DNA of 64,000 nt from Candidatus Nomurabacteria bacterium. GTDB taxonomy: Bacteria > Patescibacteriota > Saccharimonadia > Saccharimonadales > HK-STAS-PATE-42. The position numbers and the translations under genes were made by a program. A model generated the notes under the pieces. It was not told the DNA's origin. It worked only from the letters and a program-made list of their open reading frames with translations, and searched no databases. Numbering within the stretch: the stretch's first letter is position 1; the number at the start of each line of letters is the position of its first letter. The stretch is taken from the NCBI GenBank assembly GCA_023898665.1, contig CP060233.1, forward strand, positions 356,368 through 420,367, read 5' to 3'. Positions 23,841 to 38,996 of this stretch are shown one piece after another.

Positions 23841-23847
23841 AATAACT

Positions 23848-26697
23848 ATGGATATTAGAAGAAAGAGACTTAGTTTTGGAGGTATAACGTTATTTGTTGT
23901 CCTTTTATTAAGTGTTTTTAATTTTTCTCCAAAAACAAATGCTTTAAGTGGGTCTGAGTTTAACGCCGGGAGAATCATTGACGATGCAGTTTTCTTCAAT
24001 TCTAACTCGATGAGTGTGGCAGAGATTCAAAGCTTTTTGAATAATAAAGTTACTTGTGACACTAACGGTTCTAAAATGACCGGGGGTATAACTAGGGCTC
24101 AGTACGCTGCTCAAAGAGGTTGGCCAACTGTCTTTACTTGTTTACCTCAGTATAGGGAGAACCCTTCCACACACGAAAATAATATTGGTAACCCAAATTA
24201 CAACCCACCAGGTTCTCATAGCGCTGCTCAGATTATTTATAATGTTAGCTCAGATTGGGGAGTAAGCTCAAAAGCTCTAATCGTACTACTTCAAAAAGAA
24301 CAAGGGTTAGTTACTGATGAGTGGCCAGTACCTCGACAATATCAAATAGCTACTGGTTATGGTTGCCCTGACACCGCACCGTGCGATGAACAGTATTATG
24401 GATTTGTAAATCAATTGACTAAGGCAGCATATCAATTCAAAAGATATGTTCAGAATTCGTCTGGGTATAGATACAGGGCTGGTCAAGTTAACTCGATTTA
24501 CTGGTCCCCAACTACTTCTTGTGGTGCCAGCAATGTATATATTGAAAATGGCGCTACGGCAGCGCTATATAACTACACACCATATAGACCAAATCAAGCT
24601 GCATTGAATAATTTATATGGCACGGGAGATGGGTGCTCAGCTTACGGAAATAGAAACTTCTGGAGATATTTTAGAGACTGGTTCGGGACTGTAAGTGCCG
24701 ATCCTTCACTCTATAGCGCAGTAGTAAAGGATGTCCGAGATGGTAAGATATATTTGGCCACTTATTCAAGGTTGCATTATATACCGTCACAAGAAATCGC
24801 AGATGCATGGGGGATAGATTTGGATTCTGCCCAAGAGCCACCTTTAACTTACTTTGCAAGTCGGTCTGTCGGACCTAATATAGTTAACTTGGCTAAAGAC
24901 CGATTTGGGAATGTTTTTGTGATGGATGGAGGTGAGCGACATTATGTACAAACCTCGGGAGTGGCTGCATTATGGGGTTTAAATATCCAGGACTCTATAC
25001 AAGCTGATGGATTTATTAATTCTGCTAGAGATGGGAGATGGCTCTCTAAATGTGTTGGTGTAATCGGGGGCTCTGATGGTTGGATTGGGGATACGAATGT
25101 CCGCCACTTGATTGGTTCCTCAGTAGCAAAAGCTTGGGGGTGTAATTCTGCTACTGGCATGTACGCATCGACATCTTTTGTTGAGCGTTTGCAACCCGGC
25201 GGAGCACCAGGTAGGTTCGTGCAATTTCAAGGCAAGCGTTATCTTGTGGAGGCTGGTTCGTTGTGGTCTTCAAGTGACAATAATGTAGTCTCTTGGTATA
25301 ACGCAAGTGGTGATAGCTACTTCAACTGTAGTCTTGATTTGTGCTCAACCTTGCCAAAAAAAGATTTAAACTGGTTAGCTGAGGATATTAGCACTGGGAG
25401 GTGGTATGTAATCGAGGCTGGTAAAAAGCGTTATGTTAAAAACGGCAAAATAGCAAAAGCTTGGGGATTTGAGAATTTTAGTCCTAGATCTCTGCTTAGT
25501 AATGACTTGCTAGATACTTTAGCTAATGGAGCTGATTTAGGATTGTCTGCAAGATCTACTGCACCGGTTAGGTATTATATTTTGGGCGGGGATACAAAGC
25601 ACTACATCCCTAATCAGACCGCTATTGATGAATGGGTTCCAGAAGGCGAAGCTATAGATTCTATAGATGTTGCGGTGTTAAATAAGTATGTCGATGGAGA
25701 TTCATTAAGCTCGCCTGTCTCTAAAGACACGAACGGTCAGTACTACATTCTACAGGGAGGGGTTAAATACCCAATTGAATCTAGAAAAGTAAGTTCTTGG
25801 TCAGATAATCCTATTAATGTCGCTACAAAGCAAGTAGAGAGTATGGATACTGGAATTAGTATTGGAAACATAGTCTATTATGACGTAGGTGGGCAAAGAC
25901 AGTATTTTGCAGTAATTGATAAAAAAAGGTATCAGGCAAACTATAATCAAGTAAAGAATAGTTGGGCTCTGGATCAAGCCATAAGAGCTAAGCCTTCTAG
26001 CCTAGATCGGTATGCACTCCAATCTGCACCTCTTAGCCCTTTAGTGCGATTATCTGGTAAAGTCTATAGCCTATCTAATCTAAAGAAGAAGGAGCTAAAC
26101 CAGTACATCTTAAATAGAATAGACTCATCAAAAATACTCGATTTGAGTAGTGATGTGTTTGACAATAGTACATTACCTCAAGGGTCATCTTATTTATTGA
26201 AAGACAATGGAAGTAGCAATATTTGGCTAGTATCTACTAAAGGTAAGGTTTTACTTACAAGTACTGCTCAAGCACTTAATCTAGGATATATATCAATGGG
26301 TCAAGAGTTTAACCAATTAGATATAGAGACTATAAATTTAATTCCAAATGATAACACCGTTCCATCATTAGTAGTTAGATCACCAAGTGGTTCGATGAAG
26401 CTAGTAAGTTTTGGTGGTGGGTTAGGATTTGGAGATGCGGACACTGCACTTGCCTATATTGGAGTGTCTGGTAGCGTAGTGGATGTTTCACAAAGTATAT
26501 TTGATTCATACGGTTTCCCTCGTAATGCAACAAGACTTATACGAGATGATGCAGGAAAAGTATATTGGCTTGAGGGTGGTAAAAAGCGATGGATATTGAA
26601 TGGTGGTCTACTTGGAACGAGGTTTAACGGCATAACACAAACTTACTTACATAGTACAGTTATGACTTTGATACCTGATGGAACTGTATTAAATTAA
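23848..26697 (+). CDS. large secreted protein: N-terminal Cys-containing globular domain plus about 10-12 degenerate ~55-aa repeats
   Basis: Signal peptide MDIRRKRLSFGGITLFVVLLLSVFNFSPKTNA. The repeat core is G(G)K(K)R[YHW][IV] followed by AWG. Examples are RWYVIEAGKKRYVKNGKIAKAWG and KVYWLEGGKKRWILNGG. The tracked start at 23833 overlaps the upstream gene. Confidence 0.75.
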   Translation: MDIRRKRLSFGGITLFVVLLLSVFNFSPKTNALSGSEFNAGRIIDDAVFFNSNSMSVAEIQSFLNNKVTCDTNGSKMTGGITRAQYAAQRGWPTVFTCLPQYRENPSTHENNIGNPNYNPPGSHSAAQIIYNVSSDWGVSSKALIVLLQKEQGLVTDEWPVPRQYQIATGYGCPDTAPCDEQYYGFVNQLTKAAYQFKRYVQNSSGYRYRAGQVNSIYWSPTTSCGASNVYIENGATAALYNYTPYRPNQAALNNLYGTGDGCSAYGNRNFWRYFRDWFGTVSADPSLYSAVVKDVRDGKIYLATYSRLHYIPSQEIADAWGIDLDSAQEPPLTYFASRSVGPNIVNLAKDRFGNVFVMDGGERHYVQTSGVAALWGLNIQDSIQADGFINSARDGRWLSKCVGVIGGSDGWIGDTNVRHLIGSSVAKAWGCNSATGMYASTSFVERLQPGGAPGRFVQFQGKRYLVEAGSLWSSSDNNVVSWYNASGDSYFNCSLDLCSTLPKKDLNWLAEDISTGRWYVIEAGKKRYVKNGKIAKAWGFENFSPRSLLSNDLLDTLANGADLGLSARSTAPVRYYILGGDTKHYIPNQTAIDEWVPEGEAIDSIDVAVLNKYVDGDSLSSPVSKDTNGQYYILQGGVKYPIESRKVSSWSDNPINVATKQVESMDTGISIGNIVYYDVGGQRQYFAVIDKKRYQANYNQVKNSWALDQAIRAKPSSLDRYALQSAPLSPLVRLSGKVYSLSNLKKKELNQYILNRIDSSKILDLSSDVFDNSTLPQGSSYLLKDNGSSNIWLVSTKGKVLLTSTAQALNLGYISMGQEFNQLDIETINLIPNDNTVPSLVVRSPSGSMKLVSFGGGLGFGDADTALAYIGVSGSVVDVSQSIFDSYGFPRNATRLIRDDAGKVYWLEGGKKRWILNGGLLGTRFNGITQTYLHSTVMTLIPDGTVLN

Positions 26698-26714: not shown

Positions 26715-27641
26715 TTACTCCCCTACTTTTCTGAGTTTTATGTAGAACTCATAATTCTCTTTACCTGGTAGCGCTTTTTCTTTTAGGATGTACTTCCATT
26801 TCTTTTTTGTTGAGTTAATATATTTTATTACTTTATTAAACTCGTGCTCGTTCCATACATGATAATGCATTGAATGCTGATCATCTGTAATACTCTTGAT
26901 TGCTAGATCATATACCTTTTTTAAGTCTTTTATTTTATTTGTGTGGGCGTAAAATTCGACTACATGAAGGGCGTCTCTATACCTAGAAGGACTTTTATTA
27001 TCTTCTACCAAGTGTTCAAGCTGTGTCGCGGGCCTTGTTTTATCTAAGGTCCTTTCTCGTTTCGGTACAATTAACACTAGCTCCCCGCCTTTTTTGAGTT
27101 TATCCCAGGCTGTATTCATTGCCCCTATAGGATCTCTGACGTGTTCAATTACATGTGATGCGATTATAAAGTCTAGGCTCGAGTTCTTAATGCCCTCCAT
27201 TTTGTCAAAATTAGTATGTATATCAGTGGGAACATATTCAAATAAGCTGGTTGAGTAGAGTTCAGATTCAAGCTGTTCCTTATTGAAGAGGTCGGCGTAT
27301 AATATTTTAGTGCCTAATGGAATTGGCAGAGGGTTTGCTGCTGCTCCAAACTCTACTCCTTTGCCAGTTAGCCCTTGAGTAATAAATTGACGCATGAAGT
27401 TCATGTCTCTGTTCATTTTTTTCATTTTAGGATCCAAAATGATTGGAGTTGGCGCTCCATAAGGATAATTTAAGGCTTCTTGTTCAGTGATCTCCTGAAT
27501 ATCTTCGGGCCATCTATAACCTGGTTTATTTCCTAGAGTCGAAAGGATATTAATGTCTCGTAACCATCTACGCCTACCTTGGTCAATTAAGTAAACCTTA
27601 CCGGCCAGCATCCCCTTACCATTCTTAACTCTGACTAGCAT
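26715..27641 (-). CDS. class I SAM-dependent methyltransferase with an N-terminal module resembling the neighbouring repeat protein
   Basis: The Methyltransf_11/23-like block is LDFIIASHVIEHVRDP..LKKGGELVLIVP. The N-terminus is GKVYLIDQGRRRWLRD. Confidence 0.75.
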   Translation of the reverse strand: MLVRVKNGKGMLAGKVYLIDQGRRRWLRDINILSTLGNKPGYRWPEDIQEITEQEALNYPYGAPTPIILDPKMKKMNRDMNFMRQFITQGLTGKGVEFGAAANPLPIPLGTKILYADLFNKEQLESELYSTSLFEYVPTDIHTNFDKMEGIKNSSLDFIIASHVIEHVRDPIGAMNTAWDKLKKGGELVLIVPKRERTLDKTRPATQLEHLVEDNKSPSRYRDALHVVEFYAHTNKIKDLKKVYDLAIKSITDDQHSMHYHVWNEHEFNKVIKYINSTKKKWKYILKEKALPGKENYEFYIKLRKVGE

Positions 27642-27646
27642 ATGTA

Positions 27647-28411
27647 TTATTTTTTAATAGCAGAATACATTAAATTAGAGTCATTCTTAGAGCCACCGCC
27701 AAAAAACTTTACATCAACATTTTTATACCCATTATCTTCCAGAATCTTCTTAAGTGATTTTTTGTTGAAAAGGACAATGTGATCAGTGGGATCATAAATG
27801 TCTTGTTCGCTTACCTTCCAATGATCACTGTCGATGTTTGGAGTAGTCCCAAAAAGTAATCCACCTTTTTTCTGAATCTTTCTAATACTTTTCAATGCTT
27901 TTTGGATGTCATAAAAATGCTCTATAACCTCAACCATAACTACGCAATCAAATTTGTCACCTTTTAGCTTGTAGTTTTCTATCAAAGAAGTATCTACAGG
28001 AAGTTTAAATACCTTTTTAGCCCAACTAGCTGCAGGCTTGCTTAGTTCTAAGCTAAATGTATTCCAACCTCTTGAAAAAAGAGTATAGCTTAACATGCCA
28101 AGTCCTGAGCCAATCTCTAACAATCTTCCATGAGGATTGCCAACTTTAGATCTGTAAGCGTGATCTATCTCTCCGGCCATGTAGCGAGTACCTTCTGGGT
28201 TAATAATTGAGAGGTATCCTTCTGGGTCATCCAAATAAGTTTCGGGACTCTTTGAGTTTAAATGGCGAGTGGTAGAATATATAGTTCCACACTCTAAGCA
28301 TTTAGCATATCTTTGTTTTCCAATGACTCTGAAATCCTTATTTCTGTTATTACCACAAACATCACAAGTCTCATTTGATTTCTTCACTTTTGTCAGACCC
28401 TTTTTTATCAT
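27647..28411 (-). CDS. class I SAM-dependent methyltransferase with an N-terminal Cys4 zinc ribbon
   Basis: CDVCGN..CLECGT, then motif I LLEIGSGLGMLS and the post-I/II blocks DCVVMVEVIEHF..GGLLFGTTPN. Confidence 0.85.
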   Translation of the reverse strand: MIKKGLTKVKKSNETCDVCGNNRNKDFRVIGKQRYAKCLECGTIYSTTRHLNSKSPETYLDDPEGYLSIINPEGTRYMAGEIDHAYRSKVGNPHGRLLEIGSGLGMLSYTLFSRGWNTFSLELSKPAASWAKKVFKLPVDTSLIENYKLKGDKFDCVVMVEVIEHFYDIQKALKSIRKIQKKGGLLFGTTPNIDSDHWKVSEQDIYDPTDHIVLFNKKSLKKILEDNGYKNVDVKFFGGGSKNDSNLMYSAIKK

Positions 28412-28415
28412 AATT

Positions 28416-31400
28416 CTATCCTTTTATCTTATTTATAACTTCCATGACTGCGTCTTGGTAGCGCTTTTCACCATAATCTTTAGCTTGTTTGAGTCCATTT
28501 GATATGAGCTTTTCCCTTACCTTATTATCATTTAGTACGTTGAATATTGAATTTGCTATTTCTGTAGGGCTATTTCTGCTAATTATACAGTTTTGGTTAT
28601 TCTTGTATAGATCTGACCAGTCACTGCTTTTGTTATCGTTGATAACAACTGGTACACCTGACGCCATCATTTCTAGAGGTATTACACCTGGATGTTGGCT
28701 GAACATAAGAAATAGGCATGCATCAAACGAGGAGTAAAAATCTTTTAGATCAGTATAAGGGACTTTACCAGCAACTGATAGTCCTTTTTCTTCCAGCTTG
28801 TAACTTTTTGAGTAGCTCTGAGCCCCGGCAATTACTATCTCGATATCATCTCCTAGTTTGGTTTTTAATTTAGTTAGTGCTGCTATTCCTAGCTCAAATC
28901 CATTCCGGGGCGAGTCTGGTCTTCCATAAAACATTACTCTCTTTACTTTTTTATTTGCATAGAGTGGTGCGCTCTGTGCTTTTGATTTAGTGTGATTTAT
29001 ATAATCACTTAAATCAAGCAACGAGGGTAAATAAGTAGAGTCATTATTTTTATTGTATTGTTCATATCTAGTGCCGAGAGCTTTTGTTCCCGCTAAAGCT
29101 AGATACCCAAAATCGTAAGTTGCTTCTGACATTGCCGATAAAGTACCTTTGGGGTAGAAATCAGGCTCCCAGTCTTGAAGGATGTAGCATTTTCGTTTAG
29201 TTTTATTGTATTTGAGCATGTCGTAAGCAGTTGTCCATAAGGTGCAGATGGCGATGGTAGAGCTTTCTATATCTATGGTGCTTGAGTTTCTGCTAGCGAT
29301 GAATCTGGAATCCTTTAATGCAGGGAATTGCGATATAACAAGTTTTTTTGGTATCTTTATGCTCACATTCGAATTAAGTATGAAGGTATGCCTTGTTTCT
29401 TCTCGCATAGTTAGTTCGTTAGCTAAAGCGAAAATATTTTTAAGCCCCGCATACAAACTTTCGAACATCGGAATAAACCAAATAGCAGAGTCTATACTGC
29501 TTATTTTTCCTGTTGAATTAGCAGCTTTTATGCTCAAATCTATATCTTCTTGAGAGAAATCGTATTGGGCAGAAAGGTTATTAGCTTCATTTTGGTACTG
29601 TGATTGGTCTTCATCATTATTACCCTGAATTTCTGAGAAATAAGGTCTCAAATCAGCACCTTTTTGGAGATTTTTTAAGAACTGTTCTTTTCGTGAATCA
29701 CTTGTGATATTTCGTTCGTCAAACTGTGGTCCACTGAGTAGTAAGGATAGATTAGGGTTGAAGTAACCATCTCCAATAGTTTTACTGAAGTATTTCTCAG
29801 CAAGTTTGACAACTGAAAGAGATGGGGCATCTTCCTGTCCAGAAGTTTCTTTTTCAATATTTAAAGTTACGTATGGTGTAGAGACTATCCTAAAATCTGA
29901 AGCTCGCAACAACAAGTTAATCTTCCAGAAAATGTCGAGTACGCTATCAGTCTCTTCGCAATAAAGATCTTTGTTTATTTTTGATAAAGCTGAGGATTTA
30001 ATTAAAGAGAAAAATGGTGATCCAGCGGATGTGTTTCTGACCCACTCATGAAATCCAAAGATGGAAGGTGTGTAGGTGCCTTCTGAATATATTGGACCAA
30101 AGAGAGACCTAAAGCCTAGAATCCTGCCAACATCAAATAAACCTCCATTATGATCTTTGATATGAGGGCTTGCAACAGCAACCTCGGGTATACTTAGCCA
30201 TCCGGCTACTTCGTGAATCTGTTGGGTGCTTATTTTAGAATTTACATTTGAGTTAAGCACCAGTAGGTCTTGATCGGGTTTTTTATCTCTTATTGAAGAT
30301 AAAAACTTTTTACCATCACGGGAATCTATTGTTACTACGCTGTAATCAAAATTAACTCCTTTAAGTTGCTTTGAGAGCCTTTCTTTAGAGGTGGTATCGT
30401 CAAGATCAGTTATGAAAAGTATAAGGATTTTTTGATTAACCCTTTGATTCTTCCAATGTAAGTTTAAAAAACCATCTTTTGTATGTGTAACGGTAACATC
30501 TAATCCAGCTTTTTTTGCAGAGTAAGTAATTGCGTTTCTTTGGCCTTCTAATGCATATGGCTTAGCCATTATTGAGTGCGCAGTGGAGGTCTCTAGGACT
30601 CTCCAATGGTATAGAACTTTCGGTATGTGGCCAACTTTTTTTGATACCTTAATCAATCTAAGGAATAAATCCCAATCTTGCGCTCCATCTGTGTTAGTCT
30701 GCCAGCCACCAATTTTTTTTATTAGGGAGTGTTTAAAGACATTGAGATGAGTGAGATAGTTAGAATTAAACATTATCTCTGGAGACCAATCTGGTTTAAA
30801 CATCGGCTCGTAATGTCTCCCATTTTCGTCTATTTTATCTTTGTCAGAATAAATAAAGTCATAATCATCTTCGTTTATCATCTTTGCGTTTTCGTATAAT
30901 GCATCAGGTGAAATTAAATCATCATGATCGAGAAGGGCTATATAGTCCCCAGTAGCCTGTTCTAAGCATGCGTTTGAGTCGGTCGCAATTCCTCCGTTAG
31001 TAGGCATGAATCGTACTTTAATACGGTTATCTATCTTTTGGTATTTCTTTAGTAGAGCAATAGATTCTTCATTCTGGGCAACTTCAGCAATGCAGAGTTC
31101 AAAGTATGGATAAGTTTGGTTTAATACGGATTTAATCAGATCCTCAAGCACGTCTGTAGGGGGCTTATACACAGGGGTTATTATGCTTATGACTGGTTTC
31201 TTTTTAAAGTTTTTAGATTCTTCTCTTTGAGTATTTAGATCTCTGTCCGACAATGAATTATCTATTCGCCATGTCTGGTATGCCTCATTCATATCGTTAA
31301 TTTTGTTAGTTGGCGCGTTTTGATTAACAATCAGTTTATTTTTTACTGCGTACATAAAGCCTGTTAGGCCTTCGCTGCTCAGTTTTCTGGTAACCTTACT

Positions 31401-31469
31401 AACTGCTCTAGTAGGGTTCTTAATCACATTCTTTGTAAGTAATACAATTCTCTTGGCTTTGGGTCTCAT
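28416..31469 (-). CDS. multidomain glycosyltransferase (N-terminal GT2, unassigned central region, C-terminal GT1/GT4-like)
   Basis: The GT2 signature is VISIITPVYKPP..YIALLDHDD. The C-terminal third ends with a GT-B-like block (FDACLFLMFSQHPGVIPLEMMASGVPVV). Length is 1017 aa. Confidence 0.8.
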   Translation of the reverse strand: MRPKAKRIVLLTKNVIKNPTRAVSKVTRKLSSEGLTGFMYAVKNKLIVNQNAPTNKINDMNEAYQTWRIDNSLSDRDLNTQREESKNFKKKPVISIITPVYKPPTDVLEDLIKSVLNQTYPYFELCIAEVAQNEESIALLKKYQKIDNRIKVRFMPTNGGIATDSNACLEQATGDYIALLDHDDLISPDALYENAKMINEDDYDFIYSDKDKIDENGRHYEPMFKPDWSPEIMFNSNYLTHLNVFKHSLIKKIGGWQTNTDGAQDWDLFLRLIKVSKKVGHIPKVLYHWRVLETSTAHSIMAKPYALEGQRNAITYSAKKAGLDVTVTHTKDGFLNLHWKNQRVNQKILILFITDLDDTTSKERLSKQLKGVNFDYSVVTIDSRDGKKFLSSIRDKKPDQDLLVLNSNVNSKISTQQIHEVAGWLSIPEVAVASPHIKDHNGGLFDVGRILGFRSLFGPIYSEGTYTPSIFGFHEWVRNTSAGSPFFSLIKSSALSKINKDLYCEETDSVLDIFWKINLLLRASDFRIVSTPYVTLNIEKETSGQEDAPSLSVVKLAEKYFSKTIGDGYFNPNLSLLLSGPQFDERNITSDSRKEQFLKNLQKGADLRPYFSEIQGNNDEDQSQYQNEANNLSAQYDFSQEDIDLSIKAANSTGKISSIDSAIWFIPMFESLYAGLKNIFALANELTMREETRHTFILNSNVSIKIPKKLVISQFPALKDSRFIASRNSSTIDIESSTIAICTLWTTAYDMLKYNKTKRKCYILQDWEPDFYPKGTLSAMSEATYDFGYLALAGTKALGTRYEQYNKNNDSTYLPSLLDLSDYINHTKSKAQSAPLYANKKVKRVMFYGRPDSPRNGFELGIAALTKLKTKLGDDIEIVIAGAQSYSKSYKLEEKGLSVAGKVPYTDLKDFYSSFDACLFLMFSQHPGVIPLEMMASGVPVVINDNKSSDWSDLYKNNQNCIISRNSPTEIANSIFNVLNDNKVREKLISNGLKQAKDYGEKRYQDAVMEVINKIKG

Positions 31470-31485
31470 ATATTTATTATTGAAT

Positions 31486-32550
31486 TTATTTCTTTATCTT
31501 TTTTACAAGATTTATGGTCGACTCTGACAAAGGGATTTTTTTTAGTGCCGCTCTATGATTAAAAATATGTCTCTCTAGCTCATTATTTCGATCTTTTAGT
31601 CTTTCGATTTCTTCTTTGAGCGTTTCAAACTTTTGCTCTACAAGACCTTTCTCATAACTTAGAGATCCTAAAGTTTTCTTGGCTTCATAAATCGCTTTAG
31701 TTTGCGTCATAACAAGTTTAGCAATAATAATAGAGTAAAGCATCTCATAATCTAGGTAGGAACTATTACTTATTGATTTTATTTTTATTTCTGGTAGTTT
31801 ATTTTGTGAGGCAATGATTATTTTTCTGTATCCTTGGTCTGTAAAGAAACTTGACGGCTTTTTCTCAAATTCTGTATTAAATTCAGTATTGATAGCTTCT
31901 ATCGTAGCTTTTTTAATCTGCTCACTTGAAGCTGTAGCTAAGTTTGCAAATGCTGAGGCAAGCCAAAAATTAAATGGTAATGTAGCTACAGAGTTAGTCT
32001 TCCAGCCAGCCTTGTCAAAATAATTTCTGATTTTGTCTAAATTTGGTTTTTTACATTCAAAATGTTCTAATAGCCAATCCTGATCAACTCCAAATAGCTC
32101 CTTATTTATGGAATTTAATGAATGTTCAAATTTGTCGGTTTGGAAATCGTCATAGGGACCAGCAATAATTACAGCTTCTTTTGTTAGTTGAATAGCAGAT
32201 TCAATAACTGATCTTTTATTTGCATCACCTGAAACATGTTCGAGCATATCTATCATAATCGTAAAGTCGAATTTTTTATTAAGCTTTCTAGCTTCTTCCC
32301 CCGTAGATTGTATATAGGTAATCTTGCTATTCAAACCAGCTGGCTTTGGCCTTGGGTCTACTATTGTTAATTCAAAGGCAAAGCCACTTTCAATAAGGAA
32401 GTCATAAATAAAAGTCGATGACCCCCCAATATCTAGAATTGAGTATGTCTTATTTTTAGAACTGTTTTTTGTCATACTTTCTAAAAGAAAAATCACAGTT
32501 CTAAATCTTGTGAAGGCATCTGGTTGCAGCTTGAAATAACTTTTTTTCAT
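31486..32550 (-). CDS. SAM-dependent methyltransferase with a C-terminal coiled coil (WbdD-like terminator/ruler candidate)
   Basis: Motif I ILDIGGSSTF and MIDMLEHV. The C-terminal heptad-rich segment is LVEQKFETLKEEIERLKDRNNELERHI. It sits directly downstream of wzt on the same strand. Confidence 0.75.
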   Translation of the reverse strand: MKKSYFKLQPDAFTRFRTVIFLLESMTKNSSKNKTYSILDIGGSSTFIYDFLIESGFAFELTIVDPRPKPAGLNSKITYIQSTGEEARKLNKKFDFTIMIDMLEHVSGDANKRSVIESAIQLTKEAVIIAGPYDDFQTDKFEHSLNSINKELFGVDQDWLLEHFECKKPNLDKIRNYFDKAGWKTNSVATLPFNFWLASAFANLATASSEQIKKATIEAINTEFNTEFEKKPSSFFTDQGYRKIIIASQNKLPEIKIKSISNSSYLDYEMLYSIIIAKLVMTQTKAIYEAKKTLGSLSYEKGLVEQKFETLKEEIERLKDRNNELERHIFNHRAALKKIPLSESTINLVKKIKK

Positions 32551-32553
32551 AAT

Positions 32554-33762
32554 CTACTTTATAACTTCGAATAAATTATCCATGATTACTAAGCCGCCCT
32601 CACTGGTCTCGCCATATACGCTAAAGCTGACAGGACGCTCTATACTGTCAAATTGTTGTGTAAAGCTTGGGTCGAACACAGTAACTGAAATGGAATATGT
32701 GCCGCTATTGAGATTTGGTTTTTTGAACCATAGTATTAACTCTTTTATCGAGGAATCTAATTTAACATTTTTCGTGTTCGGTCCTATAATGTTCTCGTTC
32801 TTTTCACCAGTAACGTTTAGACCAACTACTAAGTTCTGATTACTATTGAGGGATATGTTGCTAAATGACATTTTAATTCCGATATCTTCTCCAATAGAAA
32901 ATCTAGACGAAGCTTTTCCGGATTTTTTAATAGTCTGTACTTTATCTGTAATGAATTCTCCTGAGCCCCACCTAACAAACTGATTTGTTAAACTAGACTC
33001 TTTCTTTGAGTGTTCAGAAGAATCATTAAGCTGAAAGTATCTAATTTTAGCTTCTGTTGGATCACATGTCGCAAGTTGATTGCCTGCATCAAGCACAACA
33101 ACCCTATCACAATATCGCTCAACATCTGCCATATTGTGTGAGACAAATACTATTGTTTTACCCTCCTCTTTTAATGTGTTAAAAGTACGGTAACATTTTC
33201 TTTGGAAGTTACTGTCTCCAACAGCTAGAACTTCGTCAATAATTAGTATGTCGGTTTTTGCTCTTATTGCGATCGAGAACGCCAAACGTACCTGCATACC
33301 ACTTGAGTAGTTTTTTAACTTTTGGTCCATGAATTTTTCAAGTTCTGCAAATTCAACAATTTCATCATACATTTCATTGACTTCTTTTTTATTGAAGCCA
33401 AGCATGGCACCATTCATGTATATATTTTCTCGTCCAGTAAGCTCTGGGTTAAAACCTACGCCTAGTTCAATAAAAGGTGTAAGGGAGCCATTTATAGACA
33501 CATTACCCTTAGTCGGAGTGTAAATTTTTGCCAAAACTTTAAGCAAAGTTGATTTCCCGCTACCATTCCTGCCTACAATACCAAAAAATTCTCCTTTATT
33601 AACTTCGAATGAAATGTTCTTTAATGCGTGTTGCTTCTCACTGCTTGTTCTTTTAAATGGATGTAGTATTTTTTGCTTTAAGTTGTTATTTAACTCATGG
33701 GGAAGAATGAAGTCTTTATATACTCCCTCAACCTTTATTGCTACTTCTTTATTTTCTTCCAT
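32554..33762 (-). CDS. wzt: polysaccharide ABC exporter ATP-binding protein with a C-terminal Wzt_C-like carbohydrate-binding domain
   Basis: Walker A GRNGSGKST, signature YSSGMQVRLAFS, Walker B ILIIDEVLA. About 140 extra beta-rich residues begin at RWGSGEFITDKV. Confidence 0.9.
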   Translation of the reverse strand: MEENKEVAIKVEGVYKDFILPHELNNNLKQKILHPFKRTSSEKQHALKNISFEVNKGEFFGIVGRNGSGKSTLLKVLAKIYTPTKGNVSINGSLTPFIELGVGFNPELTGRENIYMNGAMLGFNKKEVNEMYDEIVEFAELEKFMDQKLKNYSSGMQVRLAFSIAIRAKTDILIIDEVLAVGDSNFQRKCYRTFNTLKEEGKTIVFVSHNMADVERYCDRVVVLDAGNQLATCDPTEAKIRYFQLNDSSEHSKKESSLTNQFVRWGSGEFITDKVQTIKKSGKASSRFSIGEDIGIKMSFSNISLNSNQNLVVGLNVTGEKNENIIGPNTKNVKLDSSIKELILWFKKPNLNSGTYSISVTVFDPSFTQQFDSIERPVSFSVYGETSEGGLVIMDNLFEVIK

Positions 33763-33768
33763 ATGTTC

Positions 33769-34596
33769 TTAAATCTGTTCTGCAAAAAACTTTGATCTCT
33801 TTCTAAAGTATACTGAACCTACTAACAAAATTAATGGGACAAGCAGGTATGGTATCAATGCAAAAGGCATCTGCACTATGTCAGTTGTTCTAGCTGTACT
33901 TTTTGTAACTAAACTATAACGTAAATCTTGAATAATCTGTGATACAGGATTAAGCATTATTATTTTAGCTGCAGTCGCATTGAATTCGGTAAAAACTAGG
34001 TGAATATCGTATATGATGGGTATGGCATAAAAGGCTGCTTGCATTAACACCTCCCATATGTGGCTAAGATCCCGGAAGTTCACATATAAGGTAGAAAGTA
34101 TTAGCCCAATCCCTAGCACTAGTGCATATACTTCACCTATGAGTAATGGGGCAAATAGGGCTTGTGATCCAAAACTGACACCATTGAATAGTGCAAATAT
34201 TAAAACTATTACTAGGCTTAAAAACAAGTTTATGAGGGAAGATACTGTACCCGAAATAACAATAATATACTTAGGAAATGAGATTTTGCGTATTAAATCA
34301 CCTCTTCCAACTATTGAGCTCAACGCTCCCCCAGTTGATTCGATAAAGAATGTCCATAGGACTATACCTAATAAGAGATAGACTGGATAGTGAGGTATGC
34401 CTGCTCCGAAACTGAATATTTTTGTAAATACAACGTAGAGTACAGTGAATAGTCCAAGAGGCTTAAGTAAACTCCAGGCGTAGCCTAGGAAAGAGTTTTG
34501 GTATCTAAGTTTAAACTCTGTCTTAACAAGCTCTCTTAATAGAGATTTGTTGCGCTTAGAGAAAAGGTTATTGGATAGGGCTTTTACTTCTGACAT
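33769..34596 (-). CDS. wzm: ABC-2 type polysaccharide exporter permease
   Basis: Six-TM ABC-2 permease with the typical N-terminal KTEFKLRYQNSFLGYAWSLLKP block. The start at 34596 is preferred over the tracked 34626, because divergent -10 boxes lie inside the extension. Confidence 0.9.
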   Translation of the reverse strand: MSEVKALSNNLFSKRNKSLLRELVKTEFKLRYQNSFLGYAWSLLKPLGLFTVLYVVFTKIFSFGAGIPHYPVYLLLGIVLWTFFIESTGGALSSIVGRGDLIRKISFPKYIIVISGTVSSLINLFLSLVIVLIFALFNGVSFGSQALFAPLLIGEVYALVLGIGLILSTLYVNFRDLSHIWEVLMQAAFYAIPIIYDIHLVFTEFNATAAKIIMLNPVSQIIQDLRYSLVTKSTARTTDIVQMPFALIPYLLVPLILLVGSVYFRKRSKFFAEQI

Positions 34597-34656
34597 TTTT
34601 AATACGTTAATGTATAATTCTAGCATACCTGAATAACTATTTTCACTTTAAGTTTA

Positions 34657-35676
34657 ATGAGAAAAATACTAGTTGGTGTCCTTTGTTGGAATAATATTGA
34701 AATAATCAGTGATGCAGTTGATTCATTGTTAGATCAATCTATTAAAATTGATATCTTTGTTGTCGATAATGGGTCTACCGATGGATCTTACGACTTTTTG
34801 AAGGATAAATATGAAGATAATATTATCCTTCATCAGAATAAAAAGAATAAAGGTTTTGCTGGAGGGGCTAATAATGTTTTAAGACATGCCATTGAAAATG
34901 GATATGATTACGTAGCTCTTCTAAATTCTGATGCTAAAGCTCATAAAGAATGGACTTTAAGTTTAGCTAGTGTACTTGATGAAAACAAAAAAGCAGGAGT
35001 CTCAACCTCAAAAATATTAAAACTTGATGGAAAGACAATTGATACGACTGGCGAGCAGTTTTATACTTGGGGACTATCTTCACCTAGAGGAAGAGATGAA
35101 AAAGATAATGGTCAATACAATAAAGAATGCCAGGTTTTTGGAGGTTCTGGTGGAGCCTCTATGTATCGAGTCAGTATGCTAAAAGAAGTTGGATTATTTG
35201 ATGAAGATTTTTTTGCTTATTATGAGGATGCAGATTTAAGCTTTAGGGCAAATTTAGCGGGCTGGAAAGTTATTTATACTCCTAAGGCAATAGTTGAGCA
35301 TGAAATTGGAGCTAGTAGCTCTAAGGTAAGTGGCTTAGCTTATAAGATGAGCGTAAAAAATCAGATCATGCTTTTAGTGAAAAATGTACCTTTAAAAAAT
35401 TACTTTCAAATAATGCTTAGATTTAAGGTCTTATGGATCGGCAATATTGTTAGTGGTTTAAAACAGGGTTATTTTAAGCAGACAATATCTTCTTTATTAA
35501 TACTTATAGTATTGTTACCAAAAAAGTTCATACAAAGAGTTAAGATTCAAAGATTAAGAAAGAAAAAGAATATTAACGCTGATGATATTTATATGTTAAT
35601 TAGTCCTGGGTACCCAAAAATTATTAATGATAACACTACGGTTAAATTAGTTAGAAAGTTAAGCTTTTGGCGTTAA
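34657..35676 (+). CDS. GT2 family glycosyltransferase (rhamnosyltransferase-like)
   Basis: [16 protein letters not shown] and [10 protein letters not shown] motifs, plus a C-terminal membrane-associated tail. Confidence 0.85.
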
Positions 35677-36536
35677 GAATTTGCAATACTTAATAAGTAT
35701 TTACCGTAGCCACTCTTTACTAATGGCTCGGCAATTGTCATAAGTTGATCTCTATCTATCCATCCGTTTCTAAAAGCAATTTCTTCAGGGCAACCAACTT
35801 TTACGCCTTGTCTGTGTTCTATTACTTTTACAAATTCTCCTGCTTGATGAAGTGTCTCAAAGGTTCCAGTGTCTAGCCAGGCAGTACCTCTATCTAAGAG
35901 AGCCACCTTTAAGTTACCTGATTTTAGGTATGCATTTTGGATTTCTGTTATCTCTATCTCACCTCTTGGGCTTGGTTTAACGTTCTTTGCATACTCAACA
36001 CACTTATTATCAAAAAAGTATAATCCTGGAATGGCATATTTACTCTTTGGCTGCTCTGGTTTCTCTACGATCGAGACTACATTCATGTCTTTATCGAACT
36101 CTACGACGCCATATCTTTCTGGATCATGGACTTCTGCTCCAAATATTAGTCCCCCAGCAATATCTGTATATTGCTTAAGTTTAGAGCCCATCTCCGAGCC
36201 ATAGAAGATGTTATCTCCCAACACTAGTGCAACTTTATCACTTCCTATGAAATCTGCACCTAGTATAAAAGCATCTGCTAAGCCTCGTGGCTCTTCTTGG
36301 ACGGTATATTCTAGATTTATCCCCCATTCCTTTCCATCACCTAATAACTCTTTAAACCTTGGCAGATCTTTTGGTGTTGATATAATTAGCACTTCATTTA
36401 TTCCAGCCAGCATTAATGTACTGAGTGGGTAGTAAATCATTGGTTTATCATATAGGGGTATAAGCTGCTTACTTACTCCTTTTGTTATTGGATAAAGTCT
36501 AGTTCCAGAACCTCCCGCTAGAATAATTCCCTTCAT
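35673..36536 (-). CDS. rfbA: glucose-1-phosphate thymidylyltransferase
   Basis: [22 protein letters not shown] and LGDNIFYG motifs. Length is 287 aa. Confidence 0.95.
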
Positions 36537-36538
36537 AT

Positions 36539-37390
36539 TTAGTTTGCTAACTCCTTTTTAATGTATTCTTTTAATTCGTATTCCCAACTTCTTGGTTTGA
36601 AACCCGAAGCTTTTATTTTATCAAGCTTCAATGCGCTATTCTTTGGTCTTGCAGCTATGTTTTCTTTGTCTTTGTAGTATTCTTCAGTGGAAATTCCTAA
36701 CACCCTGGATGGATCATGACCAGTAAGCTCAAATGTTTTTTTTGCGATATCAAACCAGCTAACTATTGAGCCACTATTTGTGAGATTGTATACACCATAT
36801 GGGACGTTATTTGTTAAGGCAAATTCAATTGCGGCTGCTAGAGTATTAGTGAATGTAAGTCTACCGAACTGATCATCTACAACTGTGGGATTGATGCCTT
36901 TCTCCGCTAAAGATATCATAGTTCGAACAAAGTTATTGCCGTCTCCTATAACCCATGAAGTTCTAAAAATGTAGAATCTTTCTGCTCTTTGTGCCTCTTT
37001 GTCTCCTTGAGCCTTAGTCCTACCGTATATATTCAATGGATTTATCTCATCAACTTCTGTGTATTCTCCATTCTTTGTGCCGTCAAAAACATAATCTGTA
37101 GAAACATGAACGAGTGGTATCTCGTTAGTTTCAGCTAAGTCTACTAGATTAGTAACACCTGAAACGTTGATGGTCTCAGCAATTTTCACATTCTCTTCTT
37201 TTTCTGCTTCATCAACTCTTGTGTACGCAGCGGCATTTATAATTGCCTTACAGTCATCTATATTAAAGTTCACAACTTTATTTAGATTTGTTATATCTAG
37301 CTCTTCTGCATCTACGGCAATATGATCTGGAAAAATCTTTTTTAGTGCCCTGCCTAGTTGACCATTTGACCCTGTGATTAATACTTTCAT
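36539..37390 (-). CDS. rfbD: dTDP-4-dehydrorhamnose reductase
   Basis: [13 protein letters not shown] Rossmann start, STDYVFDG and YGRTK catalytic blocks. Confidence 0.9.
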
Positions 37391-37391
37391 A

Positions 37392-37952
37392 TTATTTATT
37401 TAAATCTTTTAAATAAGGGTGATTTTTATCTTTATCACTCATCGTTGCTTCGCTAAGAGGGATAGGCCAATCAATACCTAATTCGGGGTCTGCCAAGTTT
37501 ACAAATGTATATTGATCATATTGGTCCGGCTTCCAGTGTGCATCTACGATATAGGAATAATATGTAGGTTCAAGTGTCATAAAGCTATTGCCGCAACCTT
37601 TTGGAAGATAAACTGCTTTGGTAGGGTCAAGTTCAATTTGCACTACTTTGCCGAAGCTTTCCCCTTCTCTTAGGTCCACAAATGCACAAAATATCCTACC
37701 CGTTACAACCGATATGTATTTATTCCAAGGTTCGGCATGTATACCTCTTACCACCCCTATATCTTTGTTAAATGAAATATTGTGCTGAACTGGTGCAAAA
37801 TCTTCTGGCAACCCTAATTGAGCTTCTTTTGCCTTTTGAAATTTCTCTTGGAAAAAACCTCTCTCATCACTTATTGTGTTAACATCAAAAACTAATAATC
37901 CTGGTATGTCTGTTTCTTGGACTTTGAATTCAGTACTAGGTATTTCTGCCAT
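37392..37952 (-). CDS. rfbC: dTDP-4-dehydrorhamnose 3,5-epimerase
   Basis: Cupin fold with DERGFF, RGIHAEPW and KAVYLPKGCGNSF blocks. Confidence 0.9.
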   Translation of the reverse strand: MAEIPSTEFKVQETDIPGLLVFDVNTISDERGFFQEKFQKAKEAQLGLPEDFAPVQHNISFNKDIGVVRGIHAEPWNKYISVVTGRIFCAFVDLREGESFGKVVQIELDPTKAVYLPKGCGNSFMTLEPTYYSYIVDAHWKPDQYDQYTFVNLADPELGIDWPIPLSEATMSDKDKNHPYLKDLNK

Positions 37953-37956
37953 ATGT

Positions 37957-38961
<1,005 letters not shown>

Positions 38962-38996
38962 TTATAACATTAGATATTTTGTATAATCATTGTCAT

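What the first reader, a model, noticed from the sequence alone, without database searches (positions are those of the whole stretch)
31486..33762. WbdD-like coiled-coil methyltransferase next to a Wzt carrying a carbohydrate-binding domain: terminal-methylation chain-length control?
Wzt (402 aa) carries about 140 extra beta-rich C-terminal residues of the Wzt_C type. The adjacent gene encodes a methyltransferase ending in a long heptad-repeat coiled coil.

In the E. coli O8/O9a system, a coiled-coil terminator enzyme (WbdD) caps the chain with a methyl or phospho-methyl group and sets its length. The Wzt C-terminal domain then recognises that cap for export. The same logic may apply here, in a very distant lineage with a monoderm-type envelope.
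Basis: inference. Interest (0 to 1): 0.55.

Follow-up and report, generated by a model that had tools for sequence, protein, structure and literature searches.

The report
Methyl-cap terminator and cap-reading glycan exporter
A candidate-phyla-radiation bacterium carries a tight operon for a rhamnose polymer in which an exporter with a sugar-binding domain sits next to a methyltransferase on a coiled-coil stalk, the known "cap the chain, then export it" design, here in a compact, uncharacterised form conserved across this poorly known group.

Summary
Both observed features are real. Wzt (32554-33762, minus strand) is an ABC ATPase plus a ~140-residue all-beta domain. That domain passes Pfam Wzt_C, and its model matches Aquifex Wzt over 395 aligned columns. 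The next gene (31486-32550) encodes a class I SAM methyltransferase (residues 1-248), one 76-residue helix with significant heptad periodicity, and a short basic amphipathic helix.

"Long" overstates the coil. It is about a third of the WbdD C-terminal region. The enzyme is not a WbdD homologue beyond the shared fold.

It belongs to a large uncharacterised family (665 cluster representatives). Every family locus with enough flank carries a Wzt with Wzt_C, usually in the order wzm-wzt-MT-polymerase. Three Wzt homologues chosen without regard to the methyltransferase also have it directly downstream. Natural fusions exist (methyltransferase, coil, then the same GT2/WsaF-like polymerase).

Best reading: a dTDP-L-rhamnose-based polymer is capped by O-methylation, and the Wzt domain reads the cap for export. 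Ruler function is plausible but unproven.

The host is Candidatus Nomurabacteria. The logic is already known in diderms and was proposed for Geobacillus S-layer glycans, so this is a new member of a known kind. A conserved neighbouring 954-aa secreted repeat protein deserves follow-up.

The parts
33769..34626 (-). wzm, ABC-2 permease of the glycan exporter (285 aa)
   Evidence: PF01061 E 7.5e-13. The best NCBIfam match is the galactan export permease Wzm/RfbD. It lies 6 nt upstream of wzt.
33019..33762 (-). wzt, nucleotide-binding domain (residues 1-248)
   Evidence: ABC_tran E 5e-23. PDB matches are the Aquifex Wzt NBD and TagH/TarH. AF2 model. Hinge-helix Tyr242 is invariant in 56 homologues.
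32560..32976 (-). wzt, C-terminal carbohydrate-binding domain (residues 263-401, Wzt_C)
   Evidence: PF14524 at 50.2 bits against a cut-off of 30.4. All-beta AF2 domain. Foldseek hit to 8dku_A across both domains. The domain profile hits 6o14, 8dky, 5hno and 2r5o.
31807..32550 (-). MT-CC, class I SAM-dependent methyltransferase domain (residues 1-248), the proposed chain terminator
   Evidence: AF2 pLDDT 91. Foldseek top 50 are all class I methyltransferases. The SAM-motif residues D40, G42, G43, D65 and D101 are invariant across the family.
31537..31764 (-). MT-CC, single 76-residue helix (263-338) containing the heptad (coiled-coil) segment at about 296-340
   Evidence: AF2 helix H263-338. 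The a/d positions are V304 F308 L311 I315 L318 N322 L325 I329 H332 L336 I339. Periodicity p about 0.003-0.007. This region of the family profile matches GCN4, tropomyosin, lamin and BST2 in the PDB.
31492..31524 (-). MT-CC, C-terminal basic amphipathic helix (343-353, STINLVKKIKK), a candidate membrane or polymerase contact
   Evidence: AF2 helix H343-353. The last 25 residues carry net charge +6, and the family median is +5. Hydrophobic moment against shuffles gives p 0.04. No transmembrane segment was found.
28416..31469 (-). Polymerase candidate: 1017-aa GT2 plus WsaF-like GT4 two-module glycosyltransferase
   Evidence: Glycos_transf_2 E 2.5e-26, WsaF_C E 5.7e-27, WsaF_N E 3e-6. It is 35% identical over about 1000 residues to the C-terminal part of the fusion protein P0019, which carries the MT-CC module at its N-terminus.
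27647..28411 (-). MT2, zinc-ribbon plus class I methyltransferase (254 aa), accessory
   Evidence: Methyltransf_23 E 3.8e-20. Among the related loci, a counterpart was seen only in L002/L003.
26715..27641 (-). MT3, methyltransferase (308 aa) with an N-terminal copy of the repeat found in the neighbouring secreted protein, accessory
   Evidence: Methyltransf_23 E 9.6e-10. The repeat HMM hits residues 18-42 at E 1.3e-5, the only hit among 185 window ORFs apart from the secreted protein itself.
34657..35676 (+). GT2, candidate adaptor rhamnosyltransferase (339 aa)
   Evidence: Glycos_transf_2 E 3.6e-20. The best NCBIfam match is TIGR01556 rhamnosyltransferase, E 2e-19, below cut-off. A divergent GT2 occupies the same position in the related loci.
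35673..38952 (-). rmlA, rmlD, rmlC and rmlB, the dTDP-L-rhamnose pathway
   Evidence: TIGR01207, TIGR01214 and TIGR01181 score above their cut-offs. TIGR01221 (rmlC) is the best hit for its protein but below cut-off.
38952..40190 (+). GT4 glycosyltransferase (412 aa)
   Evidence: Glycos_transf_1 E 2.2e-39. A GT4 gene flanks the cluster in the related loci.
23316..26697 (+). Conserved neighbours: a 174-aa membrane-anchored protein and a 954-aa secreted repeat protein, convergent on the operon (tentative association)
   Evidence: No Pfam, NCBIfam or PDB match for the 954-aa protein. A counterpart occupies the same position in L001, L002, L004, L006 and L016. The L001 counterpart is 34% identical over its full length.

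Best explanation
This is an ABC-transporter-dependent pathway for a rhamnose-containing cell-surface polymer in a Candidatus Nomurabacteria (Patescibacteria/CPR) genome.

Proposed steps:
1. The polymer is built in the cytoplasm on a lipid carrier by the 1017-aa GT2 plus WsaF-like enzyme, using dTDP-L-rhamnose from the adjacent rmlABCD genes.
2. The 354-aa MT-CC protein oligomerises through its about 76-residue helix. Its basic C-terminal helix holds it at the membrane and/or on the polymerase.
3. Its methyltransferase head O-methylates the non-reducing terminal sugar. This stops elongation and creates the mark.
4. The Wzt C-terminal beta-sandwich domain binds that mark to load the finished chain into Wzm-Wzt for export.
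5. The stalk keeps the capping site a fixed distance from the polymerising site, at most about 11 nm if fully extended. Only chains above a minimum length would then be capped, giving a short ruler.

What is shown: gene order, domain folds, family membership, conserved synteny and the fusion.

What is inferred: the methyl cap, its recognition by this CBD, the oligomeric state and the ruler effect.
For: Operon structure:
- wzm-wzt-MTCC-GT-MT2-MT3 form a tight operon with gaps of 3-16 nt.

Wzt:
- The Wzt_C fold is confirmed by Pfam, PDB sequence search, AF2 and Foldseek.

MT-CC fold and family:
- It has a confident class I methyltransferase fold with invariant SAM-motif residues.
- It has a 76-residue helix with significant heptad periodicity.
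- The family is large, with 665 representatives at E<=1e-3.
- It keeps a tail of about 112 residues after the catalytic domain (median, 139 stand-alone members) and a basic C-terminus.
- A crude heptad scan flags the tail in 97 of 137 members, against 43 of 137 for shuffled tails.
- The tail region of the family profile hits canonical coiled coils in the PDB.

Linkage to Wzt_C:
- All 10 distinct related loci with enough flank, besides the window, encode a Wzt with Wzt_C, mostly immediately upstream of the methyltransferase. These include loci fetched through the methyltransferase alone, and two loci from diderm lineages: L007 (the protein is named for Sulfurospirillum) and L010 (Magnetospirillaceae).
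- Reverse test: 3 of 3 Wzt homologues picked only for contig length have an MT-CC family gene directly after wzt.

MT-CC rather than MT2 or MT3:
- MT-CC is the conserved methyltransferase. MT2 and MT3 are absent from most related loci.

Fusion evidence:
- P0019 is MT-CC joined to the same GT2/WsaF polymerase, 35% identical over about 1000 residues. Other fusions are MT-CC-GT2-GT2.
- This matches the terminator-coil-polymerase layout established for K. pneumoniae O12 and O7 (PMC11231755).

Precedents:
- Methyl-capped rhamnose or mannose is read by the Aquifex CBD (PMC9445017).
- A 2-O-methyl rhamnan cap and Wzt recognition were proposed in Geobacillus (PMC2943079).
Against: - There is no biochemical evidence. 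The glycan structure is unknown.
- The Aquifex methyl-pocket residues are not conserved. T346, A348, H350 and W362 correspond to S359, T361, F363 and S373 here, and the trap loop is two residues shorter. The ligand of this CBD cannot be read from sequence.
- Two other methyltransferases in the operon could supply the export mark. In P. aeruginosa CPA, the cluster methyltransferases are needed for production but do not behave as WbdD-type length regulators (PMC3560663).
- The stalk is short, and its length is fairly uniform across the family (70 of 139 tails are 100-119 residues). That fits a docking or oligomerisation role as well as it fits a tunable ruler.
- The AF2 model is a monomer, so coiled-coil pairing is not shown.
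- No initiating phosphoglycosyl transferase, ligase or Wzy_C gene was found in the window.
Confidence: 0.6

Rival explanations
1. MT-CC is mainly a scaffold or decorating enzyme. The coil serves only to oligomerise it and dock it to the polymerase or membrane. The export mark read by Wzt_C is made by MT2 and/or MT3, or several methyl groups are needed together.
For: - Three methyltransferases sit in the operon.
- MT3 carries a possible glycan-binding repeat.
- In P. aeruginosa CPA, two partly redundant methyltransferases without coils are required for polymer production (PMC3560663).
- The stalk length is uniform across the family.
Against: - MT2 and MT3 are missing from most related loci that still keep Wzt_C plus MT-CC.
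- The SAM-binding residues of MT-CC are invariant, so it is very likely catalytic.
- The fusions place MT-CC, not MT2 or MT3, on the polymerase.
Confidence: 0.2
2. The Wzt C-terminal domain recognises something other than a methyl group, such as a terminal sugar, the repeat backbone or the lipid-linked adaptor. Methylation by MT-CC would then be a surface decoration unrelated to export.
For: - The Aquifex methyl-pocket residues, including Trp362, are not conserved.
- Known CBDs read chemically different caps, namely methyl, methyl-phosphate and Kdo (PMC9445017, PMC11231755).
Against: - Gene linkage between this methyltransferase family and Wzt_C is near-obligate in both directions.
- No other candidate terminator (kinase or Kdo transferase) was found in the cluster.
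- The CBD has its own invariant set (G314, G327, N329, G354, Y356, D372) across homologues that all keep the methyltransferase.
Confidence: 0.15
3. Chain length is set by export kinetics, as in K. pneumoniae O2a, not by capping. The adjacency of the methyltransferase and Wzt would be only operon packing.
For: Export-controlled termination exists in ABC-dependent systems (described in PMC3560663).
Against: - By established knowledge of the O2a-type systems, export-controlled systems use Wzt proteins without a CBD. Here the CBD is present and conserved.
- The linkage holds across distant phyla and different gene orientations, as in L010 and L013.
Confidence: 0.05

Closest known systems
E. coli O8 / O9a (K. 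pneumoniae O5 / O3) WbdD with Wzt-CBD
   Same: - A stand-alone terminator with an N-terminal class I SAM methyltransferase.
- A C-terminal coiled coil followed by a membrane- or polymerase-contacting end.
- Encoded beside wzm and a wzt whose C-terminal domain reads the cap.
- A separate multi-module polymerase.
   Different: - No detectable specific homology to WbdD.
- No kinase domain.
- The helix is 76 residues, against a C-terminal region spanning 460-708 in WbdD (PMC3482155).
- An invariant Asn at a core position hints at a dimer, whereas WbdD is a trimer.
- The polymer is rhamnose-based, not polymannose.
- The host has no LPS.
K. pneumoniae O12 WbbB and O7 ORF6 (terminator, coiled coil, then polymerase in one protein)
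   Same: Fused relatives of MT-CC (P0019, P0023, P0029, P0045 and others) have exactly this layout. P0019 is MT-CC plus the same GT2/WsaF polymerase that is encoded next to MT-CC here. Like O7, the system uses rhamnosyltransferase modules and rml genes.
   Different: - In the window the modules are split into two genes.
- The terminator is a plain methyltransferase, not a Kdo transferase (O12) or a methyltransferase-kinase with a CBM (O7).
- The coil is shorter.
Geobacillus stearothermophilus NRS 2004/3a S-layer glycan cluster (Wzm, Wzt, WsaE, WsaF, rmlABCD)
   Same: - A monoderm host.
- An L-rhamnan built by WsaE/WsaF-type enzymes. WsaF_N and WsaF_C domains are present here.
- A methyltransferase module proposed to cap the chain, with Wzt predicted to bind the cap (PMC2943079).
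- The same gene-order rule: wzm and wzt upstream of the transferases, with rml genes nearby.
   Different: - In WsaE the methyltransferase is fused to the transferases; here it is separate.
- No WsaB-type (Wzy_C) oligosaccharyltransferase or S-layer gene was found in this window, although Wzy_C genes flank related CPR loci.
Aquifex aeolicus WzmWzt with a CBD that binds 3-O-methyl mannose/rhamnose
   Same: It is the closest solved structure to this Wzt over both domains (34% identity, E 2.7e-36). It shares the conserved hinge-helix aromatic pair and a Gly-x-Asn motif in the CBD.
   Different: The cap-pocket residues differ (T346S, A348T, H350F, W362S), and the trap loop is two residues shorter. 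The host is a diderm and the product is an LPS O antigen.
Pseudomonas aeruginosa common polysaccharide antigen locus (PA5457 and PA5459 methyltransferases)
   Same: A rhamnan made by an ABC-dependent pathway, with several cluster methyltransferases needed for production (PMC3560663). This is a good analogue for MT2 and MT3.
   Different: Those methyltransferases lack coiled-coil and membrane-contact regions and do not act as WbdD-type length regulators. The sugar is D-rhamnose made from GDP-mannose, not dTDP-L-rhamnose.

Membership tests
Wzt with C-terminal carbohydrate-binding domain (Pfam PF14524 Wzt_C) | N-terminal ABC nucleotide-binding domain of the Wzt/TagH type | tested here: met
   ABC_tran E 5e-23. 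Best PDB hits are the Aquifex Wzt NBD, TagH and TarH.
Wzt with C-terminal carbohydrate-binding domain (Pfam PF14524 Wzt_C) | Wzt_C profile match above the curated threshold | tested here: met
   50.2 bits against a cut-off of 30.4, over residues 264-392.
Wzt with C-terminal carbohydrate-binding domain (Pfam PF14524 Wzt_C) | Beta-sandwich fold matching solved Wzt CBDs | tested here: met
   AF2 gives an all-beta domain at 263-401. Foldseek hits 8dku_A over 395 columns. The domain profile hits 6o14, 8dky, 5hno and 2r5o.
Wzt with C-terminal carbohydrate-binding domain (Pfam PF14524 Wzt_C) | Cap-binding pocket residues as in the Aquifex methyl-sugar complex | tested here: not met
   T346, A348, H350 and W362 correspond to S359, T361, F363 and S373, and the trap loop is two residues shorter. 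Pocket residues vary between serotypes in known CBDs, so this bears on ligand identity, not on family membership.
Wzt with C-terminal carbohydrate-binding domain (Pfam PF14524 Wzt_C) | [quoted passage not shown] | not testable with these tools
   This needs binding assays and genetics.
WbdD chain terminators (E. coli O8/O9a) | Specific sequence or structure relationship to WbdD beyond the generic class I methyltransferase fold | tested here: not met
WbdD chain terminators (E. coli O8/O9a) | N-terminal SAM-dependent methyltransferase with an intact cofactor site | tested here: met
   AF2 fold. D40, G42, G43, D65 and D101 are invariant in the family.
WbdD chain terminators (E. coli O8/O9a) | Extended C-terminal coiled coil acting as a spacer | tested here: inconclusive
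   The helix at 263-338 has significant heptad periodicity and is conserved in the family. It is much shorter than the WbdD 460-708 region (PMC3482155), and pairing was not modelled.
WbdD chain terminators (E. coli O8/O9a) | C-terminal amphipathic membrane anchor and polymerase recruitment site | tested here: inconclusive
   A basic amphipathic helix lies at 343-353, with net charge +6 over the last 25 residues. In fusions this segment joins directly to the polymerase. No interaction data are available.
WbdD chain terminators (E. coli O8/O9a) | Trimeric state, and chain length changing with coil length | not testable with these tools
   This needs multimer modelling or biophysics, and heptad engineering.
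Coiled-coil terminator plus polymerase assemblies of ABC-dependent glycan pathways (WbbB / ORF6-O7 class, PMC11231755) | Terminator module at the end of the coil distal to the polymerising GT modules, in a cluster with wzm and a CBD-bearing wzt | tested here: met
   Fused homologues have the order MT, coil, GT2, then GT2 or WsaF-GT4. Here the same modules are adjacent genes. Linkage to Wzt_C was seen in every related locus with enough flank.
Geobacillus-type S-layer glycan (slg) pathway | WsaF-type rhamnosyltransferase and rmlABCD with wzm and wzt | tested here: met
   WsaF_C E 5.7e-27 and WsaF_N E 3e-6. rml genes confirmed.
Geobacillus-type S-layer glycan (slg) pathway | WsaB-type (Wzy_C) oligosaccharyltransferase and an S-layer protein acceptor | tested here: not met
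   No Wzy_C was found in the window ORFs scanned, and two unassigned ORFs do not resemble the L001 Wzy_C protein. Wzy_C genes are present in the related loci L001, L002, L015 and L016.

The most novel reading that the evidence does not exclude
The operon may be the core of a Patescibacteria-wide envelope system that is not yet described. The system would comprise a short, length-gauged, methyl-capped rhamnan and a dedicated conserved secreted protein of 700-950 aa. That protein would dock onto the polymer through tandem repeats of about 45 residues. One copy of the same repeat is reused by the cytoplasmic methyltransferase MT3 to hold the nascent chain. The polymer-protein pair would form the outer surface of these ultrasmall episymbionts and could mediate host contact.
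Probability: 0.2. Interest if true: 0.65.

Novelty: new member of a known kind. Interest (0 to 1): 0.4.

Why it matters
Almost nothing is known experimentally about the surface glycans of Patescibacteria, although these cells live attached to hosts.

This analysis shows that a complete cap-and-export rhamnan module is conserved across several CPR lineages: Nomurabacteria, Saccharibacteria and an unclassified Patescibacteria MAG. Family members also occur in Woykebacteria and Kaiserbacteria. In five of the related loci the module sits close to rnpA-yidC, with dnaA also in view in two of them.

It also defines a large, uncharacterised family of compact methyltransferase terminators that co-occur with CBD-bearing Wzt proteins in both CPR and diderm-lineage loci. 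That gives a concrete marker for predicting capped, length-controlled glycans from metagenomes. It also gives a small, tractable protein for testing the coiled-coil ruler idea.

It does not change the known paradigm.

Tried and rejected
- **Locus search with the broad alignment.** The search for related loci with the broad family alignment failed for lack of a conserved stretch. A narrower alignment gave only 6 genome loci.
- **Aquifex pocket mapping.** I first guessed that the invariant D372 and F380 of the CBD correspond to Aquifex D354 and W362. The profile alignment showed this is wrong, because W362 aligns with S373.
- **Initiating transferase and ligase or oligosaccharyltransferase.** The PF00953 protein at 16602-17726 looks like MraY, not WecA. 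No Wzy_C or LCP domain was found in the ORFs scanned. Two unassigned ORFs of 421 and 427 aa do not resemble the Wzy_C protein of L001.
- **The 954-aa secreted protein.** It has no PDB, Pfam or NCBIfam match.
- **Literature on CPR.** No paper among those listed from the search combined Patescibacteria with Wzt. The rhamnose-rich Saccharibacteria preprint concerns host rhamnan, not the epibiont's own polymer.
- **The ruler paper.** The Hagelueken 2015 paper is not held.
- **The heptad scan.** It has a high background (31% of shuffled tails), so it is used only together with AF2 and the profile evidence.
Full report
**What is at the coordinates.** The interval 31486-33762 holds two minus-strand ORFs separated by 3 nt: a 402-aa Wzt and a 354-aa methyltransferase. 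They sit inside a six-gene operon with gaps of 3-16 nt:
- wzm (33769-34626)
- wzt
- the methyltransferase, here called MT-CC
- a 1017-aa two-module glycosyltransferase (28416-31469)
- two more methyltransferases, MT2 (27647-28411) and MT3 (26715-27641)

Next to the operon are a divergent GT2 whose best NCBIfam match is a rhamnosyltransferase model, then rmlA, rmlD, rmlC and rmlB, and a GT4. Proteins identical to both products are deposited as Candidatus Nomurabacteria MAG proteins. The host is therefore a member of the Patescibacteria/CPR, which by general knowledge are regarded as monoderm.

**Wzt.**
- Pfam gives ABC_tran plus Wzt_C, the latter at 50.2 bits against a cut-off of 30.4.
- The best solved relative by sequence is full-length Aquifex aeolicus Wzt, E 9e-65, with the alignment running into the C-terminal domain.
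- An AF2 model built on 56 homologues (pLDDT 84) has the NBD at 1-248, a flexible linker at 251-260 and an all-beta domain at 263-401.
- Its best Foldseek matches are the Aquifex full-length chains, aligned over about 395 columns.
- A profile of the C-terminal part alone finds all three solved Wzt carbohydrate-binding domains.

I mapped the Aquifex cap pocket using the residues named in PMC9445017 and the alignments. T346, A348, H350 and W362 correspond to S359, T361, F363 and S373 here, and the trap loop is two residues shorter. The fold is the same, but the ligand cannot be inferred. The CPR homologues have their own invariant or nearly invariant set: G314, G327, N329, G354, Y356 and D372, plus the hinge-helix Tyr242.

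**MT-CC.**
- Pfam only reaches 26 bits against a 27-bit cut-off for Methyltransf_23.
- The AF2 model is confident (pLDDT 91). It shows a Rossmann methyltransferase at 1-248, one uninterrupted helix at 263-338 and a short helix at 343-353.
- Foldseek returns only class I SAM methyltransferases.
- The cofactor-motif residues D40, G42, G43, D65 and D101 are invariant in alignments of up to 61 family members.
- Heptad a/d positions can be written as V304 F308 L311 I315 L318 N322 L325 I329 H332 L336 I339. N322 is invariant in the close homologues.
- Period-3.5 hydrophobic periodicity exceeds shuffles (p 0.003-0.007), and the strongest such window of the whole protein is at 284-328.
- There is no transmembrane segment. 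The last 25 residues carry net charge +6, and the terminal helix is weakly amphipathic.

The coil is therefore real but short. Clean heptads cover about 36-45 residues within a 76-residue helix. By comparison, the C-terminal region of WbdD spans residues 460-708 (PMC3482155).

**Relation to WbdD.** WbdD does not appear in the phmmer search at E<=1. It is not among the 60 profile hits listed, nor among the 50 Foldseek hits listed out of 539 significant ones. There is no kinase domain. MT-CC therefore resembles WbdD in architecture and probably in role, but it is not a member of the WbdD family by any test I could run.

**The family.** An exhaustive HMMER search found 665 cluster representatives at E<=1e-3 and 98 at E<=1e-10.
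- Most are 320-380 aa.
- In 139 stand-alone members, the tail after the conserved Tyr-Arg that closes the catalytic domain has a median length of 112 residues, identical to the window protein. Seventy of them fall between 100 and 119 residues, and outliers reach 258.
- The last 25 residues have a median net charge of +5, and 43 of 139 carry an S-x-x-[WFY]-[KR] motif there.
- A crude heptad scan flags the tail in 97 of 137 members, against 27 of 137 for the catalytic domain and 43 of 137 for shuffled tails.
- The tail positions of the family profile match GCN4, tropomyosin, lamin and BST2 coiled coils in the PDB.
- Named members come from Patescibacteria lineages, Omnitrophota, Nitrospiria, Acidobacteria, Sulfurospirillum and Magnetospirillaceae. 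None is characterised.

**Linkage to Wzt_C.** I built HMMs for the Wzt NBD, the Wzt C-terminal domain and the MT-CC family, and searched all fetched loci.
- Every distinct locus with an MT-CC homologue and enough flank has a Wzt carrying the C-terminal domain. These are L001, L002, L004, L006, L007, L008, L009, L010, L011 and L013, plus the window.
- In most of them wzt ends where the methyltransferase gene starts, and the order is wzm-wzt-MT-GT2/WsaF-GT4.
- L007 and L010 come from diderm lineages (Sulfurospirillum by protein name, and Magnetospirillaceae). L010 and L013 keep the adjacency in different orientations.
- As a reverse test, I took three Wzt homologues chosen only because they lie on long contigs. 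All three have an MT-CC family gene directly downstream, at E 1e-87 to 6e-97, each with a heptad-rich, basic tail.
- MT2 has a counterpart only in L002/L003, and MT3 has none. MT-CC is thus the conserved methyltransferase of the module.

**Fusions.** Many family members are the N-terminal part of 870-1470-aa proteins. In the flagged members, a coil-like segment at about 270-340 is followed by GT2 and further GT modules. P0019 (1319 aa) is 33% identical to MT-CC over residues 13-263. Over residues 355-1300 it is 35% identical to residues 6-999 of the window's 1017-aa transferase, E 1e-176. It is thus a natural fusion of the two adjacent genes, in the same order. This is the terminator-coil-polymerase layout established for K. 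pneumoniae O12 WbbB and O7 ORF6. In those proteins the terminator always lies at the end of the coil distal to the polymerase (PMC11231755).

**Mechanism.** Taken together, the best-supported reading is as follows.
- The operon makes a dTDP-L-rhamnose-derived polymer by the ABC-transporter-dependent route.
- MT-CC methylates the non-reducing end, which stops elongation and produces the mark.
- The Wzt C-terminal domain binds that mark to load the chain for export.
- The stalk and basic helix position the capping head relative to the membrane-proximal polymerase.

The folds, family, synteny and fusions are shown. The cap, its recognition, the oligomeric state and any ruler effect are inferred by analogy with E. 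coli O8/O9a, K. pneumoniae O12/O7, Aquifex and the Geobacillus S-layer glycan (PMC3482155, PMC11231755, PMC9445017, PMC2943079). If fully extended, 76 helical residues span about 11 nm (my arithmetic at 0.15 nm per residue). Any ruler would therefore be short. The narrow length distribution across the family fits a fixed spacer or docking element at least as well as it fits a tunable ruler.

**Rivals.** MT2 and/or MT3 might supply the export mark, as the coil-less methyltransferases of the P. aeruginosa CPA locus might (PMC3560663). However, they are absent from most related loci. The CBD might instead read a non-methyl feature, since the Aquifex methyl pocket is not conserved. Against that stands the two-way gene linkage and the absence of any other terminator candidate. 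Export-kinetic length control is unlikely given the conserved CBD.

**Novelty.** The cap-and-export logic with a coiled-coil terminator is described as widespread across bacteria (PMC11231755). It was proposed for a monoderm in the Geobacillus S-layer system (PMC2943079). What is new here is threefold:
- a compact methyltransferase-coil family that has not been characterised;
- its near-obligate pairing with CBD-bearing Wzt;
- its conservation as a module across CPR lineages, in five related loci close to rnpA-yidC, with dnaA also in view in two of them.

No paper among those listed from my search linked Wzt to Patescibacteria. I rate it a new member of a known kind, of moderate interest.

**Side observation.** Convergent on the operon's 3' end lie a 174-aa membrane-anchored protein and a 954-aa secreted protein with no database match. 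A counterpart occupies the same position in five CPR loci, and the one in L001 is 34% identical over its full length. The large protein holds at least four strong copies of a repeat of about 45 residues. An HMM built from these repeats hits only one other ORF among 185 in the window, the N-terminus of MT3, at E 1.3e-5 with the next best at 0.75. The repeats were selected with a pattern I wrote after noticing the MT3 motif, so this needs independent confirmation. If real, it suggests a shared polymer-binding module.

Noticed in passing
window 23833-26697 (+) and 23316-23840 (+): A 954-aa secreted protein with tandem repeats of about 45 residues (core G-x-x-Y-x-[IL]-x-x-G-x-[KR]-[RH]-[YW]-[IV]) and a 174-aa membrane-anchored protein lie convergent on the glycan operon. 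Neither has a Pfam, NCBIfam or PDB match above threshold. A counterpart of the large protein holds the same position in CPR loci L001, L002, L004, L006 and L016, usually with the small one beside it. The L001 counterpart is 34% identical over its full length.
   Followed up: partly
window 26715-27641 (-), MT3 residues 18-42: The N-terminus of the cytoplasmic methyltransferase MT3 (GKVYLIDQGRRRWLRD) matches the repeat of the neighbouring secreted protein. The repeat HMM gives E 1.3e-5, and this is the only other hit among 185 window ORFs. It may be a shared glycan-binding module. The repeat selection was partly post hoc.
   Followed up: partly
C-termini of MT-CC family members, e.g. L016:8185-9270 and L014:8176-9276: Many family members end with a motif such as SKSWRITAPLR or SKTWKLIHPLR directly after the coil. 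S-x-x-[WFY]-[KR] occurs in 43 of 139 stand-alone members. The window protein has a divergent basic version. In the fusion P0019 the motif region (SRSVKIMRLGGKAIRLAK) links the coil to the polymerase. Its role is unknown.
   Followed up: partly
L001, L002, L015, L016 (upstream of wzm); not found in the window: Related CPR clusters carry a Wzy_C (PF04932) gene, of the O-antigen ligase or O-oligosaccharyltransferase type, next to the module. None was found in this window, so the acceptor of the exported polymer here is unknown.
   Followed up: partly
L002, L004, L006, L014, L015, L016: In several Patescibacteria contigs the whole glycan module lies close to rnpA-yidC and a jag-like KH/R3H gene, with dnaA also in view in two loci (L002, L016), that is, near the replication origin region. 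In this window it lies instead between ribosomal protein genes L10 and L7/L12 and a SpoU methylase and sigma factor.
   Followed up: no
window 53618-56686 (-): A 1022-aa ORF has Type ISP C-terminal specificity, N6_Mtase and Eco57I domains, as in a single-chain restriction-modification enzyme.
   Followed up: no
window 16602-17726 (-): The only PF00953 (polyprenyl-phosphate sugar-phosphate transferase) gene seen in the window matches MraY best, below cut-off, rather than WecA or TagO. The initiating enzyme for the polymer is therefore not identified.
   Followed up: partly
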